Source: a virus (Duplodnaviria; Heunggongvirae; Uroviricota; Caudoviricetes). Taken from it: 55,396 nucleotides of DNA. Below the pieces are notes generated by a model. The model was not told the DNA's origin. It made no database searches and saw nothing but the letters and a program-made list of their open reading frames with translations. The first letter of the stretch is position 1; every line of letters begins with the position of its first letter. Location: the IMG/VR virus record IMGVR_UViG_2721755728_000002; one strand, given 5' to 3'. Shown piece after piece: positions 4,360-19,230 of the stretch. Both the position numbers and the translations under genes were made by a program.

Positions 4360-4927
4360 TATCGCGTCCTCAACAATGAATTTTGTGATGCAGTGCCTGG
4401 TGCCTCCAGGTGACGTTAACCAGTTAACAATTAACGCCGGATACAGAGAATCCACCCATAACACTGTTTTTGGTTTTAACTGTTCCGCGTGCGCTTAGCC
4501 GCATTCACCGCATCACAAAATTCACTTTAAAAAGGGCGGCAGAGCAGTCACGGAGTAAAACTGATACCGCCAAACGTCACCAGAAAATTGATAACAGAGG
4601 GCGTTGCAGCGGGGTTGTCACTTAAGCGTATGGTCAACCTGACAACCCGGTGTCCTCAACGGGGGAAGGAATAACCCCGCCATACTTACCGCCGCGCCAT
4701 TTCGCGGATTGCCACAACCGGAAGCGCACGGTCGACGAAAATTTAACGACAGGCTATCTATGAACCAGCTACCTCGCCGTGCGCTTTCGCGTTATGGTCT
4801 GACTTTTCAGGGAAATATCCTTTCAGTAAACTGTCAGTGCCGGATGCTCACCCGTGTCCGGCGCACGCACTCCACCTCATCCGTGGAGAACTCCTTAATT
4901 ACCAACCTTAGCTTCGTTGGTTAGCTA

Positions 4928-5146
4928 TTAACGCGGGTATGTAATCATTCTGGCAATGCTTAATGCCGCTGCTTTTTCCAGATTGGTGATATCCTGCTCC
5001 AGAGCGGACAGATTTTCAGCCTGCTTAGCCCTGGCTTCATTAGCCCATTTCAGATCCTGCGCTGCATTAATTTTCTGGCGCATCCACTCATAAAGTTCAT
5101 CATCGGTATAGTCTGGCGAGATGATGACGGGTTCTCGTTTCTGCAT
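4928..5146 (-). CDS. Hypothetical early-left protein
   Basis: 72 aa ORF in the early-left operon, coiled-coil-like composition. Confidence 0.45.
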   Translation of the reverse strand: MQKREPVIISPDYTDDELYEWMRQKINAAQDLKWANEARAKQAENLSALEQDITNLEKAAALSIARMITYPR

Positions 5147-5305
5147 ACTGATTCCTCGCGGTGCTGCTTCGCTTATCAGCCGTTAGATTTTGCCGAGCTG
5201 GAAAGCGCCTGTTTAAACTCACTGAAGCTGAGAGCTTCTTCGCCTTCGGCAAGGCCTTCGAAGTATTCTTCGTAAGCCTTTTCCATGATTGTGTCGAAAT
5301 CCATA

Positions 5306-10306: not shown

Positions 10307-10316
10307 GCCAAATTAA

Positions 10317-11511
<1,195 letters not shown>

Positions 11512-11610
11512 TTAACAATCGGAACTTCGTGAAGAGAAAGAATAATCCAAATCTGAATAATTAAGTTCAGCACTGTAAATAAAATTTAATCCTTAACTGG
11601 AGGTATATTT

Positions 11611-11823
11611 ATGTTAAATACACAGAAAGCCATTAATGCGGAAAAATATAACGAGTGGGCAAGAAAATTCTCTGAGCAGATTTTTAAAATTACTGGCGAT
11701 GAGAATGTGGCAAAAAATGAATTAGAACCGTGGACACCTGAAGGAAACGCACCAAATTATTGCTGGTGGGAGGTTGATCCGGTTGATGCTGCAAATGAAG
11801 CCATGAGTTACCACAACGATTAA
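11611..11823 (+). CDS. Hypothetical small protein (AT-rich gene)
   Basis: 70 aa, GGAGG RBS; AT-rich. Confidence 0.5.
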   Translation: MLNTQKAINAEKYNEWARKFSEQIFKITGDENVAKNELEPWTPEGNAPNYCWWEVDPVDAANEAMSYHND

Positions 11824-11855
11824 TGTCGGGAGGCCGCCCGAAAGGGCGGTAAGAA

Positions 11856-12074
11856 ATGACTACATTATTCAGAAAAGAATATCCGCAAAAAAGTAGGGCG
11901 ACAGAATTTTTGTTTCTCATTCTGTTTATCGTATTGATGATACCGATATCCCCTCTAATTTTTGTCTGGGCAATCGGGAAAATAATTGAGCCAGTTACTG
12001 AATTGTATACCGACGTTGTATGGGCGTCGTTCAACACACTGCACAATAAAATTAATCCGTATAAGGAAAACTGA
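11856..12074 (+). CDS. Small membrane protein
   Basis: 72 aa with a long hydrophobic stretch (FLFLILFIVLMIPISPLIFVWAIG). Confidence 0.5.
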   Translation: MTTLFRKEYPQKSRATEFLFLILFIVLMIPISPLIFVWAIGKIIEPVTELYTDVVWASFNTLHNKINPYKEN

Positions 12075-12075
12075 T

Positions 12076-12339
12076 ATGGCAACTTTGACAAAAAAAGAAC
12101 GGGCATGGTTAAACGAATTACAGGAAGTTCTTGATCGCTGTCCATCACCGAAAAAAATTGGCTTTTACACCATTGGCGATAAAAGCATTTACCTGTATGA
12201 CCTACGCCGCATGGATGAAATCATGGAGGCTCTTGATAATCGTTCGTCGATGGATTGGTGTGTTGCTGTTCATGATATGAATGCAGGGTTTGATGAAAAG
12301 ATTTTGTTCCCCTCATCAGTTGAAAGCACTGCGGGTTAA
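12076..12339 (+). CDS. Hypothetical small protein
   Basis: 87 aa from MATLTKKERAWLNEL; ATG 2 nt after the upstream stop. Confidence 0.5.
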   Translation: MATLTKKERAWLNELQEVLDRCPSPKKIGFYTIGDKSIYLYDLRRMDEIMEALDNRSSMDWCVAVHDMNAGFDEKILFPSSVESTAG

Positions 12340-12349
12340 GGAGTAACAC

Positions 12350-13219
12350 ATGACCACTATTACCAAAGAACGTATTGAATTGTTCATTAAAAATCCGGTT
12401 GAAAACGGGCTTACCCGTGGTGAACAAATGGAACTGGCACGGATTGCGCTGGCATCGCTGGAAGCAGAGCCGGTGGCAAAGATTATAGCTCATTACCCAT
12501 TAGGGGTTGACGTAGGCAAACAAAAATTCGTACAGGCCATTAGAGAGCTTCCTGACTTTGGCGGATATCTATTTGCCGCCCCTCCAGCGCCGATAGTGCC
12601 GGAAGAAATGTATTGGCAGGATGCGCCAGTTGAAGGCAGCAGCAAAGCGGCTGCATACGCTACAGGCTGGAACGATTGCCGCGAAGCCATGCTTCAGTCC
12701 GGAAACTTTCGGGAAAATAAAGATTCGTCAACCAATAATTTTCGGAAAATCCCGGAAGCGTCAACCAGCTCTCCGGTAACTCCGGCTCTTCTGCCTGGTG
12801 GTTTCACCATTGAGGAGGCGAAGGAATTACATGAAGACCTGGTACGCAGCCACATAAGCAAGGCCTTAAGTGGCGAAAAGATGAAAAAGAAAGATCGCGA
12901 TGCTGATTTGCGCTGGATTCATGGCGTTATAGTTCAGGCAGCGTGGTTTGTAAAAGCATCACTGGAGCAGAATGCACTATCGGGCAACTATCCGGTAACT
13001 CCGGATAGTTGGATAAGCTGTAGTGAGCGAATGCCGGATACCAAAACAGCCGTTCTTGTTGCCGTGGAGTTTGACAGGAAAGGTGACTGGCGAATGAAAT
13101 GGGCGACTTACATCCCGGGTCATCCTGACGCTAATGATGGGTGGATAATTCCTGGTGCGTCGTGGAAACCGTCACACTGGATGCCGCTACCAGAACCGCC
13201 GCAGGAGGTGCGCCAATGA
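12350..13219 (+). CDS. Hypothetical phage protein with DUF551-like C-terminus
   Basis: 289 aa; GGAG RBS. Confidence 0.55.
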   Translation: MTTITKERIELFIKNPVENGLTRGEQMELARIALASLEAEPVAKIIAHYPLGVDVGKQKFVQAIRELPDFGGYLFAAPPAPIVPEEMYWQDAPVEGSSKAAAYATGWNDCREAMLQSGNFRENKDSSTNNFRKIPEASTSSPVTPALLPGGFTIEEAKELHEDLVRSHISKALSGEKMKKKDRDADLRWIHGVIVQAAWFVKASLEQNALSGNYPVTPDSWISCSERMPDTKTAVLVAVEFDRKGDWRMKWATYIPGHPDANDGWIIPGASWKPSHWMPLPEPPQEVRQ

Positions 13220-13439: not shown

Positions 13440-13685
13440 ATTCATTACGATATGGGAATTCCCATATCGGGTAAAAACGGTTTGCGGGAAAAGGAGAGTT
13501 AAGTAGAATTGCTGCGGGTGCTTGAGGCTATCTGTCTCAGGCATGAACACCAAAAGGCAGATAGAGAAAAGCCCCAGTTAACATTACGCGTCCTGCAAGA
13601 CGCTTAACATTAATCTGAGGCCCAATCTATGTCTCACAAATGTAGGTTAGCCTCTTACGTGCCGAAAGGCAAGGAGAAGCAGGCT

Positions 13686-13841
13686 ATGAAGCAGCAAAAG
13701 GCGATGTTAATCGCCCTGATCGTCATCTGTTTAACCGTCATAGTGACGGCACTGGTAACGAGGAAAGACCTCTGCGAGGTACGAATCCGAACCGGCCAGA
13801 CGGAGGTCGCTGTCTTCACAGCTTACGAACCTGAGGAATAA
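13686..13841 (+). CDS. hok: Hok/Gef-family type I toxin
   Basis: 51 aa MKQQKAMLIALIVICLTVIVTALVTRKDLCEVRIRTGQTEVAVFTAYEPEE; typical Hok membrane peptide; in-frame upstream extension from 13629. Confidence 0.8.
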   Translation: MKQQKAMLIALIVICLTVIVTALVTRKDLCEVRIRTGQTEVAVFTAYEPEE

Positions 13842-18020: not shown

Positions 18021-18096
18021 GGCCCTTTAGCTCAGTGGTGAGAGCGAGCGACTCATAATCGCCAGGTCGCTGGTTCAAATCCAGCAAGGGCCACCA
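18021..18096 (+). tRNA. tRNA with CAU anticodon (Ile2/ileX-like, or Met)
   Basis: 76 nt cloverleaf; acceptor stem GGCCCTT/AAGGGCC plus ACCA; anticodon loop CTCATAA; GGTTCAAATCC T-arm. Confidence 0.8.
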
Positions 18097-18196: not shown

Positions 18197-18273
18197 GCGT
18201 TGTTAGCTCAGCCGGACAGAGCAATTGCCTTCTAAGCAATCGGTCAGTGGTTCGACTCCACTACAACGCGCCA
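18197..18273 (+). tRNA. tRNA-Arg (UCU anticodon)
   Basis: 77 nt; acceptor GCGTTGT/ACAACGC plus GCCA; anticodon stem-loop ATTGC-CTTCTAA-GCAAT; GGTTCGACTCC T-arm. Confidence 0.8.
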
Positions 18274-18874: not shown

Positions 18875-19080
18875 CGGTAAAACTGCGCCTGGCTGTGGCT
18901 GCACTCCTGCTGTTTCTGGTGGTGATGGTGGATTTCACCAGCAGAATCATGTCGGTGCTGGCGGATGGGGTGCTGGTCTGCGGCATTGTGGTATTGCTGT
19001 GGCCGGTGATAAAAAGAAACAGCCTGCATAATGCTTGGTTTTTTTGTTTGCTGTTTATTAAAAACACTTCTGCATGGTGA
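18871..19080 (+). CDS. Small membrane protein coupled to the TerB-like gene
   Basis: 69 aa, two hydrophobic helices; GTGA start/stop overlap. Confidence 0.45.
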   Translation: MTVKLRLAVAALLLFLVVMVDFTSRIMSVLADGVLVCGIVVLLWPVIKRNSLHNAWFFCLLFIKNTSAW

Positions 19081-19205
19081 ATCCCCCTGTGCGGAGGGGC
19101 GATCAGCAACCAGGTATATGGGATAATCGCGGATTTAGGTGCTGATACTGAATTCACCGGGAGGCACCCGGCACCATACAAGAAAAAGAATGTGCATGCA
19201 AACAT

Positions 19206-19230
19206 GCCCCTCTCCGGAGGGGCTTTTTTA
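19206..19230 (+). terminator. Rho-independent terminator
   Basis: gcccctc-tccg-gaggggc followed by ttttttat. Confidence 0.55.

What the first reader, a model, noticed from the sequence alone, without database searches (positions are those of the whole stretch)
11512..12339. AT-rich three-gene cassette immediately right of the IS5 insertion
Three small ORFs (70 aa; a 72-aa membrane protein; 87 aa) sit in a markedly AT-rich block directly after IS5. Between the first two lies a GC-rich hairpin ggccgcccgaaagggcggt without a T-run. Small membrane-plus-soluble gene sets in nin-region slots are frequent sites of uncharacterised defence or exclusion functions. I recognise none of the three products.
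Basis: seen in the sequence. Interest (0 to 1): 0.5.

Follow-up and report, generated by a model that had tools for sequence, protein, structure and literature searches.

The report
Three shuffled small phage early genes
The three small genes next to the IS5 element are real but uncharacterised accessory genes of E. coli lambda-like prophages that assort independently of one another, the IS5 next to them is a recent accident, and the hairpin between the first two most likely works as a folded spacer that lets a distant ribosome-binding site serve the membrane-protein gene.

Summary
Three co-oriented ORFs (70, 72 and 87 aa) lie in a 39% GC block against 52% for the window, directly after a complete IS5. 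A stable GNRA hairpin without a T-run lies between ORF1 and ORF2.

The interpretation as a defence or exclusion cassette is not supported.
- All three ORFs are under purifying selection and belong to catalogued but unstudied families: phrog_4659; Pfam DUF4014 (933W L0067, epsilon15 gp46); phrog_1714.
- They assort independently. They occur in 563, 1002 and 978 of 5426 complete E. coli genomes, and the trio in 400.
- None matches a PADLOC model.
- They sit in the early operon with no predicted promoter of their own.
- ORF3's family is also found in Chi-like and rV5-like phages (virulent types by my own knowledge), P2-like and P1-like elements, and IncI2 plasmids.

IS5 occupies this site in only 3 genomes; 385 carry the uninterrupted junction.

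The hairpin is the most informative feature. It is far more conserved than ORF1. In 118 of 119 loci it is directly preceded by (A/G)GGAGG, and in 96 of 97 a start codon follows 5-10 nt later, serving at least five apparently unrelated downstream genes. DUF4014 copies without it have an ordinary Shine-Dalgarno. This fits a split ribosome-binding site like T4 genes 38 and 25.

The protein functions remain unknown.

The parts
10317..11511 (+). IS5 (1195 bp), transposase ORF 10349-11365. TTAA target duplication at 10313-10316 and 11512-11515. Incidental neighbour, not part of the gene set.
   Evidence: Sequence read. Annotated as an IS5-family transposase in the identical record NZ_CP010119. This junction occurs in only 3 of 5426 genomes; the empty site occurs in 385.
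11516..11610 (+). AT-rich leader (29.5% GC) upstream of ORF1. It contains the palindrome CTGAAT-AATTAA-GTTCAG (11553-11570) and ORF1's Shine-Dalgarno GGAGG (11599-11603, 7 nt before the ATG). Its 3' half is shared with ORF1-less variants in other phages.
   Evidence: No promoter-like site was called in it.
11611..11823 (+). ORF1: 70 aa, acidic (net -7), predicted helical. phrog_4659, no Pfam family. Restricted to Escherichia/Shigella phages.
   Evidence: dN/dS is 0.13-0.34. The AF2 model has pLDDT 64. Only about 5 short remote relatives were found among 1.8 billion representatives.
11828..11833 (+). Shine-Dalgarno-like GGGAGG (AGGAGG in most other loci), 22 nt upstream of the ORF2 ATG. Its last G is the first base of the hairpin.
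   Evidence: Present directly 5' of the hairpin in 118 of 119 loci. No SD lies in the 5-nt spacer before ORF2.
11833..11850 (+). Hairpin GCCGCCC-GAAA-GGGCGGT (7 bp including a closing G-U pair, GNRA loop), with no U-run. Proposed folded spacer of a split ribosome-binding site for ORF2.
   Evidence: Folds at -15.5 kcal/mol. Divergence is 0.011, against 0.042 and 0.097 for ORF1 codon positions 1+2 and 3. It travels with ORF1 or with an ORF1-less filler and precedes at least 5 apparently unrelated gene families, with the start codon 5-10 nt downstream.
11856..12074 (+). ORF2: 72 aa, Pfam DUF4014 / phrog_1832. Basic N-terminus, one transmembrane helix (about residues 17-41), and a conserved C-terminal tail ending LHNKINPY. 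Predicted N-in/C-out.
   Evidence: Pfam score 91.8 bits against a cutoff of 23.2. Alignment A3 and hydropathy and charge. Homologues are 933W L0067, epsilon15 gp46, ES18 gp39 and HK225 gp56. dN/dS is 0.09-0.39.
12076..12339 (+). ORF3: 87 aa, phrog_1714, acidic alpha/beta protein. Its start lies 1 nt after the ORF2 stop, with its own SD AAGGA at 12063-12067. Conserved motifs are RCPSPKKIGFYTIGD and FPSxVxSTAG.
12350..13219 (+). Downstream neighbour ORF4: 289 aa, EaA/Ea22-like N-terminus plus a C-terminal DUF551 domain, with a canonical SD AAGGAG 7 nt before its ATG. It marks the 'ea'-type accessory array to which the three genes belong.
   Evidence: In the identical strain C3 record this stretch is annotated as fragments.

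Best explanation
The block is a stretch of the hyper-mosaic accessory ('ea'/nin-type) gene array of an E. coli lambdoid prophage, lying in the early rightward operon between the replication genes and the hok/rusA/Q-like region. It holds three separate, real, protein-coding modules: (1) a small acidic helical protein (phrog_4659); (2) a DUF4014 bitopic inner-membrane protein, predicted N-in/C-out, whose conserved 30-residue tail would face the periplasm; and (3) an 87-aa alpha/beta protein (phrog_1714) with no recognisable fold relative. The three are one common combination, not an obligate unit: each recombines independently at its gene borders. By position they would be transcribed with the early lytic genes rather than from a promoter of their own. 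IS5 landed in the DUF977-ORF1 spacer recently, in one bovine lineage, and has nothing to do with their origin. The GC-rich hairpin is a conserved, portable intercistronic element. An (A/G)GGAGG Shine-Dalgarno sits directly at its 5' foot and the next start codon 5-10 nt beyond its 3' foot, so folding would shorten a 22-nt SD-AUG distance to about 5-6 nt. This is a split ribosome-binding site, as in T4 genes 38 and 25. Shown: gene reality, family membership, independent assortment, IS5 rarity, and hairpin conservation and architecture. Inferred: the operon assignment, membrane topology, and the translational role of the hairpin. Unknown: the biochemical roles of the three proteins. My best guess is early lytic-cycle host-takeover or envelope functions, not lysogen defence.
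For: Gene reality: dN/dS is 0.03-0.39 in all but one comparison, and each ORF has full-length family matches. Independent assortment: megablast counts are 563, 1002 and 978 genomes for the single genes against 400 for the trio. Phage records hold them singly, with homology ending at 11851, 11857-12087 and 12072. Neighbours of DUF4014 vary: ORF3, an HNH endonuclease, L0066 or others. Context: the identical strain C3 prophage shows O/P-like replication genes, DUF1627, DUF977, IS5, the three ORFs, DUF551, hokD, DUF968, RusA and DUF1133. No promoter-like or terminator-like site was called on the + strand between 11365 and 12350 apart from one weak promoter-like match inside ORF1 at 11731-11760. 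IS5: 3 genomes carry it at this site and 385 have the empty site. Hairpin: -15.5 kcal/mol. It is 4-9 times less divergent than the ORF1 coding positions. An SD lies 5' of it in 118 of 119 loci, and a start codon follows 5-10 nt 3' of it in 96 of 97. It has two different upstream contexts and at least 5 apparently unrelated downstream genes. ORF1, ORF3 and ORF4 each have a canonical SD 7-8 nt before the ATG, whereas ORF2 has none. DUF4014 genes that lack the hairpin (933W, epsilon15, MG40, HK225, L006) do have a canonical SD 5-8 nt before the start. The T4 precedent is described in PMC3014915. ORF3's family occurs in Chi-like and rV5-like phages (virulent types by my own knowledge), P22-like, P2-like and P1-like elements, and IncI2 plasmids.
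Against: No experiment supports any function. The hairpin is almost invariant, so there is no compensatory covariation to prove that an RNA structure is what is selected. The variants seen are one U-G-preserving change, one G-U to G-C change, one GNRA-preserving loop change and a few disruptive ones. The element is confined to Escherichia/Shigella phages, so its invariance could partly reflect frequent recombination at a module junction. ORF1 is followed by DUF4014 in about two thirds of ORF1 loci, and the trio is present in 400 genomes, so some functional linkage is not excluded. The promoter scan covers only a simple sigma-70 consensus. One downstream gene family has its own GGAG after the hairpin, so the hairpin is not always needed to bridge.
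Confidence: 0.6

Rival explanations
1. The three genes form one functional unit, a membrane-plus-soluble prophage defence or superinfection-exclusion cassette expressed in the lysogen.
For: The trio is contiguous in 400 complete genomes and in 44 of the 80 best IMG/VR DUF4014 loci. ORF2 is a small membrane protein. The genes are tightly packed and co-oriented.
Against: No PADLOC match. Each gene commonly occurs without the others. No promoter of their own is predicted. ORF3's family is found in Chi-like and rV5-like phages, which I know as virulent types, and in plasmids. DUF4014 in epsilon15, P22-like phages and 933W lacks ORF1, and often ORF3 as well.
Confidence: 0.08
2. The hairpin is not a translational device. 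It is instead an mRNA 3'-end stabiliser or processing barrier for the upstream cistron, or simply a conserved recombination linker at a module boundary.
For: It is a very stable GNRA hairpin without a U-run, placed just after a stop codon. Homology blocks in other phages break right after it, at 11851. It is shared by different gene pairs, as expected of a linker used in homologous exchange.
Against: A linker or stabiliser role does not explain three things: why an SD is fixed at its 5' foot in 118 of 119 loci, why the start codon stays 5-10 nt from its 3' foot, and why hairpin-less DUF4014 genes carry a normal SD instead. The roles are not mutually exclusive.
Confidence: 0.25
3. ORF1 and DUF4014 are a two-gene functional pair: a soluble acidic partner plus a membrane protein, coupled through the shared junction.
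For: ORF1 is followed by a DUF4014 gene in about 80 of 122 IMG/VR copies, and in 3 of 4 sampled E. coli loci from both early-left and early-right contexts.
Against: DUF4014 occurs in about 1700 places against 777 for ORF1. It has no ORF1 in 933W, epsilon15, ES18, HK225 or MG40. ORF1 also precedes three other gene families. Much of the linkage comes from near-identical copies.
Confidence: 0.12
4. DUF4014 is an inhibitor of a host O-antigen acetyltransferase (serotype-conversion accessory), as some database names state.
For: Some records name homologues 'acetyltransferase inhibitor' or 'O-polysaccharide acetyltransferase inhibitor'. A homologue is present in the seroconverting phage epsilon15 (gp46). 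A small bitopic protein with a periplasmic tail would be a plausible inhibitor of an inner-membrane enzyme. Phage D3 Iap is a precedent for a small inhibitor of O-antigen synthesis (PMC12373910).
Against: I found no experimental source for the name. No paper in the library contains 'DUF4014', and none found for L0067, L0066 or L0068 concerns phage 933W. RefSeq gives the same proteins a different, equally untraceable label, 'released from the phage upon host infection'. The family is common in phages for which I know of no report of altered O-acetylation (933W, ES18, HK225, P22-like phages). In epsilon15 it lies in the ead/Ea22-DUF551 early block, among no annotated O-antigen genes.
Confidence: 0.08
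5. The hairpin is a boxB-like protein-binding RNA element (antitermination or another RNA-binding regulator).
For: It is a GC stem capped by a GNRA tetraloop (GAAA) in an early operon. Lambda boxB hairpins adopt GNRA-like folds (own knowledge).
Against: No boxA-like CGCTCTTA is seen in the 50 nt upstream (sequence). No Rfam family matches. It recurs in the middle of both early-left and early-right arrays, next to start codons, rather than near promoters.
Confidence: 0.04

Closest known systems
Phage 933W L0067, epsilon15 gp46, ES18 gp39 and HK225 gp56 (Pfam PF13198, DUF4014; phrog_1832)
   Same: ORF2 is a full-length member: 93% identical to L0067 and about 50% to epsilon15 gp46. It has the same 72-aa length, the same transmembrane segment and the same LHNKINPY tail. 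It also has the same neighbourhood of ead/Ea22-like and DUF551/EaA-like genes.
   Different: Here it lies in the early-right operon after ORF1 and the hairpin. In 933W it lies in the exo-xis (early-left) region between L0068 and L0066, with an ordinary SD and a GTG start. No member has a tested function.
Split translation-initiation regions of T4 genes 38 and 25 (review PMC3014915)
   Same: An SD lies too far from the AUG (22 nt here; 22 and 27 nt in T4). A stable hairpin lies wholly between them and reduces the spacing to a functional 5-11 nt.
   Different: The role here is untested. The element is portable: the same SD-hairpin unit serves at least five apparently unrelated downstream genes and two upstream contexts in lambdoid phages. 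The T4 cases are each fixed to one gene junction. The sequences are not similar.
Accessory early genes of lambdoid phages: the exo-xis/'ea' region and the nin region (lambda orf60a, orf61, orf63, orf73, ea22, ea8.5; P22 eaA-eaI)
   Same: These are small, non-essential, highly mosaic ORFs transcribed from the early promoters and bordered by conserved junctions. 933W ea22 is split by an inserted L0066-L0068 block that includes the DUF4014 gene (PMC8614690).
   Different: None of the three products is homologous to the studied exo-xis proteins: Pfam and PHROG give no such hits. In this prophage they sit on the replication/nin side rather than between exo and xis.
Small phage inhibitors of envelope enzymes or of DNA entry (Pseudomonas D3 Iap; superinfection-exclusion proteins such as T4 Imm and P22 SieA; the last two from my own knowledge)
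   Same: They show how DUF4014 might work: a small inner-membrane-anchored protein made by a phage that acts at the envelope (PMC12373910).
   Different: No sequence relationship was detected and no PADLOC hit was found. There is no evidence of expression in the lysogen.

Membership tests
Pfam PF13198 (DUF4014) | Full-length match to the family HMM above the gathering score | tested here: met
   ORF2 scores 91.8 bits against a cutoff of 23.2, E = 3.7e-26, over residues 1-72 of 72.
PHROG families 4659 (ORF1), 1832 (ORF2) and 1714 (ORF3) | Full-length HMM match | tested here: met
   E = 2.7e-51, 2.1e-45 and 9.5e-51, each covering the whole profile. Families 4659 and 1714 have unknown function. 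The label of 1832 could not be traced to an experiment.
Known anti-phage defence systems (PADLOC-DB v2) | A match of any of the three products to a defence-system protein model | tested here: not met
   0 families at E <= 0.1 for ORF1, ORF2 and ORF3.
Obligate multi-gene cassette (operonic system) | The components co-occur and are inherited together across lineages | tested here: not met
   The single genes occur in 563, 1002 and 978 genomes and the trio in 400. Named phages carry them singly. The neighbours of DUF4014 vary.
Intrinsic (Rho-independent) terminator | A GC-rich stem-loop followed by a U-run | tested here: not met
   The stem-loop is present, but it is followed by AAGAAAUG. The terminator scan did not call it.
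Split ribosome-binding site (T4 gene 38/25 type) | A Shine-Dalgarno sequence more than about 15 nt upstream of the start codon, with no SD at the canonical distance | tested here: met
   GGGAGG ends 22 nt before the ATG, and the spacer UAAGAA has no SD. ORF1, ORF3 and ORF4 have canonical SDs.
Split ribosome-binding site (T4 gene 38/25 type) | A stable hairpin lying entirely between the SD and the AUG, which brings them to a spacing of 5-11 nt | tested here: met
   -15.5 kcal/mol. The folded spacing is 5-10 nt in 96 of 97 loci, and the SD is adjacent in 118 of 119.
Split ribosome-binding site (T4 gene 38/25 type) | Destabilising the stem lowers translation and compensatory changes restore it | not testable with these tools
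   This needs reporter fusions or toeprinting. Natural variants give no informative double changes.
Lambda-type nut site (boxA + boxB) | A boxA consensus a few nt upstream of the hairpin | tested here: not met
   No CGCTCTTA-like sequence in 11780-11832 (sequence). No Rfam match.
Rfam RNA families | A covariance-model match in 11400-12500 | tested here: not met
   Only chance-level matches were found (E >= 2.8, far below the gathering scores).
IS5 | A 1195-bp element with terminal inverted repeats, a 338-aa-reading-frame transposase and a 4-bp YTAR target duplication | tested here: met
   10317-11511, ends GGAAGGTGCGAA...TTCGCACCTTCC, TTAA duplicated. Annotated as IS5 in the identical record. 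The YTAR target preference is from my own knowledge.
O-antigen acetyltransferase inhibitor (database name for some DUF4014 proteins) | Experimental evidence that a family member inhibits an acetyltransferase | tested here: inconclusive
   No supporting paper was found in the library. The epsilon15 genome paper is not held. The name appears only as annotation.

The most novel reading that the evidence does not exclude
The SD-hairpin unit is a portable expression adapter of the E. coli lambdoid accessory-gene arrays: a conserved junction that acts both as the crossover point for swapping small gene modules and as a ready-made split ribosome-binding site that guarantees translation of whatever gene lands behind it. 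Separately, ORF3 (phrog_1714) has a confident fold with no PDB neighbour and occurs in temperate phages, Chi-like and rV5-like phages, P1-like and P2-like elements, and IncI2 plasmids about 2.7 kb from the relaxase accessory gene. It could be a new early-acting host-takeover or anti-defence protein.
Probability: 0.25. Interest if true: 0.55.

Novelty: new member of a known kind. Interest (0 to 1): 0.28.

Why it matters
As a gene set the finding is ordinary. These are three catalogued hypothetical proteins of lambdoid prophages, one of them present in the Shiga-toxin phage 933W, and they sit next to an accidental IS5.

Two points have some value. First, the hairpin gives a concrete, cheaply testable case of a split ribosome-binding site outside the T-even phages. 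It is reused across several apparently unrelated genes, which bears on how mosaic phage modules stay expressible after recombination. Second, ORF3 is a widespread 87-aa family found in phages and plasmids. It has a confident predicted fold with no PDB neighbour and no annotation, which makes it a reasonable candidate for accessory-gene or anti-defence screens.

The analysis also shows that the labels 'released from the phage upon host infection' and 'acetyltransferase inhibitor' attached to DUF4014 proteins have no source that I could trace.

Tried and rejected
- Homology between ORF3 and 933W L0066, which both start MATL and follow DUF4014: hhalign probability 0.8%, rejected. The shared start is a junction sequence.
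- Homology between ORF1 and the 58-aa acidic neighbour seen in ArgO145: probability 0.2%, rejected.
- Pfam scan of the remote ORF1 relatives: nothing.
- HMM search of 1.8 billion representative proteins with the ORF1 profile: only about 5 short relatives plus spurious repeats in giant proteins.
- PDB sequence searches with the ORF1 and ORF3 profiles: nothing meaningful.
- The ORF1 model was too poor (pLDDT 64) to justify a fold search.
- NCBIfam: nothing.
- Rfam at both the gathering and E-value thresholds: nothing in the region.
- I considered whether the CACAAC motif at the ORF1 3' end plus the hairpin could be an AgvB-like anti-GcvB sRNA. It is not: the window's AgvB copy is elsewhere, at 19236-19297.
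- Literature searches for DUF4014, L0067 and 'acetyltransferase inhibitor': no relevant paper.
- The supplements of the accessory-gene screen paper PMC12373910 contain none of the three peptide sequences.
- The epsilon15 genome paper is not held.
- An outward IS5 promoter: none was called by the consensus scan in 11365-11611. Read-through from the IS5 transposase gene remains possible, because no terminator-like site lies between 11365 and ORF1.
- The antisense 152-aa ORF (11690-12148, minus strand) is treated as spurious, because selection acts on the plus-strand frames.
Full report
**What is there**

The window is a complete lambdoid prophage of E. coli. The 838 bp of the finding are 100% identical to a prophage next to potC in bovine strain C3. 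That record is annotated, in order:
- integrase and excisionase
- exonuclease
- dicB, ydfABC
- relBE
- repressor and cro-like HTH genes
- a YdaT-like gene
- O-like and P-like replication genes
- DUF1627
- DUF977
- IS5
- two 'hypothetical proteins' flanking a 'DUF4014 family protein'
- DUF551
- hokD
- DUF968
- RusA
- DUF1133
- a methyltransferase
- tRNAs
- lysis genes

IS5 occupies 10317-11511 (1195 bp), with a TTAA duplication on both sides.

- ORF1: 11611-11823, 70 aa
- ORF2: 11856-12074, 72 aa
- ORF3: 12076-12339, 87 aa

The block has 39.0% GC against 52.1% for the window, which puts it in the lowest 4.7% of windows of its size. The 95-nt leader before ORF1 has 29.5% GC.

The hairpin GCCGCCC-GAAA-GGGCGGT lies at 11833-11850. 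It folds at -15.5 kcal/mol, and none of 200 shuffles folded as well. It has no U-run.

**Are the ORFs genes?**

Yes. Against divergent full-length alleles from related loci, pairwise dN/dS falls in these ranges:
- ORF1: 0.13-0.34
- ORF2: 0.09-0.39
- ORF3: 0.03-0.26 in nine of ten comparisons; the tenth gives 0.64 and rests on only 7 substitutions

None of the alleles has a stop codon.

Each ORF matches a PHROG profile over its full length (E about 1e-45 to 1e-51). ORF2 is a full-length member of Pfam DUF4014, at 91.8 bits against a cutoff of 23.2.

ORF1 is acidic (net -7) and helical at low confidence (pLDDT 64). It is confined to Escherichia and Shigella. A profile search of 1.8 billion representative proteins found only a handful of short relatives.

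ORF2 has a basic N-terminus, one hydrophobic helix (about residues 17-41), and a conserved tail with E45, E49, Y51, W56, F59 and LHNKINPY. From the positive-inside rule I infer that the N-terminus is in the cytoplasm and the tail in the periplasm.

**Is it a cassette?**

No.

In the phage collection the three genes occur singly, and homology stops at the gene borders (about 11851, 11857-12087 and 12072):
- ORF1 plus the hairpin is in ArgO145.
- ORF2 is 933W L0067, in the exo-xis region, between L0068 and L0066.
- ORF3 is in vB_EcoS-689R5, between Ea22-like and EaA-like genes.

In 5426 complete E. coli genomes the counts are as follows:

| Feature | Genomes | Places |
|---|---|---|
| ORF1 | 563 | 777 |
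| ORF2 | 1002 | 1703 |
| ORF3 | 978 | 1195 |
| contiguous trio | 400 | not counted |

Downstream of DUF4014 one finds ORF3, an HNH endonuclease, L0066 or other genes. Upstream one finds ORF1, L0068, an HNH endonuclease, Ead/Ea22-like genes or others.

ORF1 is followed by DUF4014 in about two thirds of ORF1 copies. That is a preference, not a rule.

DUF4014 homologues of about 50% identity sit in epsilon15 (gp46), epsilon34, ES18, HK225 and the P22-like phage MG40. In the three of these whose surroundings I read (epsilon15, MG40 and HK225) the gene lies in the ead/Ea22 to DUF551/EaA neighbourhood.

ORF3's family is much broader:
- P22-like phages
- Chi-like Salmonella phages of about 59 kb
- 120-140-kb coliphages such as Av-05
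- Vibrio, Aeromonas and Yersinia phages
- P2-like prophages, directly after the replication gene A
- lambdoid early-left regions in Edwardsiella and Serratia
- P1-like IncY phage-plasmids
- IncI2 mcr-1 plasmids, about 2.7 kb from the nikA-like gene

I know the Chi-like and rV5-like phages as virulent types; the tools did not report their lifestyle.

No product matches a PADLOC defence model.

A gene found in virulent phages and in plasmids is unlikely to serve prophage defence.

**IS5**

The exact IS5/ORF1 junction occurs in 3 of 5426 genomes, all bovine isolates: C3, B1_2 and OkiPb01675. The uninterrupted DUF977-to-ORF1 junction occurs in 385. The insertion is therefore recent and incidental, and the AT-rich block predates it.

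IS5's transposase gene points toward ORF1, and no terminator-like site lies between 11365 and 11611. Read-through into the three genes in the lysogen is possible but untested.

**The hairpin**

This is the feature that repays attention. I scanned IMG/VR for the exact 18-mer and, separately, for the 3' end of ORF1 without constraining what follows. The results are as follows.

1. The hairpin is nearly invariant while ORF1 diverges. Divergence from the window is 0.011 for the hairpin, 0.042 for codon positions 1+2 and 0.097 for position 3, over 41 distinct alleles.

2. It has two different upstream contexts. One is the ORF1 stop. The other is an ORF1-less 23-nt filler with its own small stem.

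3. In 118 of 119 loci it is directly preceded by (A/G)GGAG, with the first stem G completing AGGAGG or GGGAGG.

4. It is followed by at least five apparently unrelated genes (judged from their names and N-terminal sequences, not compared formally), with a start codon 5-10 nt after the stem in 96 of 97 resolvable cases. The five are a 60-aa acidic DUF7167 protein, DUF4014, a 135-aa Ea-like protein, a 174-aa protein and a 196-aa protein.

Within the window, ORF1, ORF3 and ORF4 each have a canonical SD 7-8 nt before the ATG. ORF2 has none in its UAAGAA spacer; its nearest SD is GGGAGG, 22 nt upstream across the hairpin.

DUF4014 genes that lack the hairpin do carry a canonical SD 5-8 nt before the start. 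This holds for 933W, epsilon15, MG40, HK225 and one E. coli locus.

This is the architecture described for T4 genes 38 and 25, where a hairpin between SD and AUG reduces 22 or 27 nt to 5 or 11 nt and is needed for efficient initiation (PMC3014915).

I therefore propose a split ribosome-binding site. Because homology blocks break at its 3' foot, the same element probably also serves as the recombination junction.

Caveats:
- There is no compensatory covariation. The variants are single changes, some pair-preserving and some not.
- The element is confined to Escherichia/Shigella phages.
- No experiment exists.
- A role as an mRNA stabiliser is not excluded and could coexist with the translational role.

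**What the proteins do**

This is unknown. No paper in the library mentions DUF4014, and none of those found for L0067 concerns the phage.

The two database names for DUF4014 proteins contradict each other, and I could trace neither to data. They are 'released from the phage upon host infection' and 'acetyltransferase inhibitor'.

From position and distribution, my best guess is that all three are early lytic-cycle accessory proteins:
- DUF4014 would act at the inner membrane or periplasm.
- ORF3 would be a general helper of mobile elements (host takeover or anti-defence).
- ORF1 would be a small acidic binder.

These are inferences with low individual confidence, about 0.2 each.

**Verdict**

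The genes are ordinary, catalogued, uncharacterised members of the lambdoid accessory pool. The IS5 adjacency is irrelevant. The cassette/defence idea is not supported.

The conserved SD-hairpin-AUG junction is a modestly interesting, directly testable new example of a known translational device.

Noticed in passing
window 19043-19297: Rfam finds the sRNA STnc100 (19043-19235, + strand) abutting an AgvB anti-GcvB sRNA (19236-19297, - strand). Both are well above their gathering scores. They lie just downstream of two tRNA genes (18021-18093 and 18197-18270).
   Followed up: no
window 4534-4585 (-) and 13516-13841 (+): A DicF antisense RNA lies near the dicB-type early-left genes. A sok/hok type I toxin-antitoxin pair (sok model 13516-13691; hokD-like ORF ending at 13841) lies about 1.2 kb right of the finding.
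   Followed up: no
window 12350-13219: ORF4 reads as an intact 289-aa frame with an EaA/Ea22-like N-terminus and a DUF551 C-terminus. In the strain C3 record, whose 838 bp covering the finding are identical to the window, PGAP annotates this stretch as two partial pseudogenes plus a short DUF551 gene. It is either a chimeric gene or an annotation artefact.
   Followed up: partly
L004 2740-2858; L009 3219-3385; many IMG/VR loci (L009-L128): An ORF1-less version of the junction exists: a conserved non-coding stretch of about 100 nt. It has the same AT-rich leader and palindrome, and an SD that is sequestered in a small stem GAGGG-N9-CCCTC. One variant, GAGTG...CACTC in L067, is compensatory. This is followed by AGGAGG plus the same hairpin. 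It is commoner than the ORF1 form among the loci found with the exact hairpin sequence (86 against 33). It could be a structured leader or a small RNA; I built no model for it.
   Followed up: partly
L300 about 4965-4995 and 5280-5305 (IncI2 plasmid pLD67-1-MCR1): In the IncI2 plasmid the ORF3 homologue is flanked by a direct repeat of about 24 nt, CATGGGAAAGGAGAGTGATATGGC. The repeat spans the end of an Ea22-like frame, an SD and a start codon. Fragments similar to window ORF4 lie on both sides. This looks like the footprint of module insertion by recombination at boundary sequences.
   Followed up: partly
window about 52600-53950: This is the most AT-rich part of the window (GC 0.33 over 828-bp windows), much lower than the finding itself. 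I did not examine it.
   Followed up: no
window 11553-11570: An AT-rich palindrome CTGAAT-AATTAA-GTTCAG lies in the leader upstream of ORF1. It is conserved, with small changes, in both ORF1-containing and ORF1-less loci. It could be a protein-binding site. No promoter was called next to it.
   Followed up: partly
window 11690-12148 (- strand): A 152-aa antisense ORF spans parts of all three genes. It is probably a by-product of the AT-rich composition, because substitution patterns fit the plus-strand frames.
   Followed up: partly
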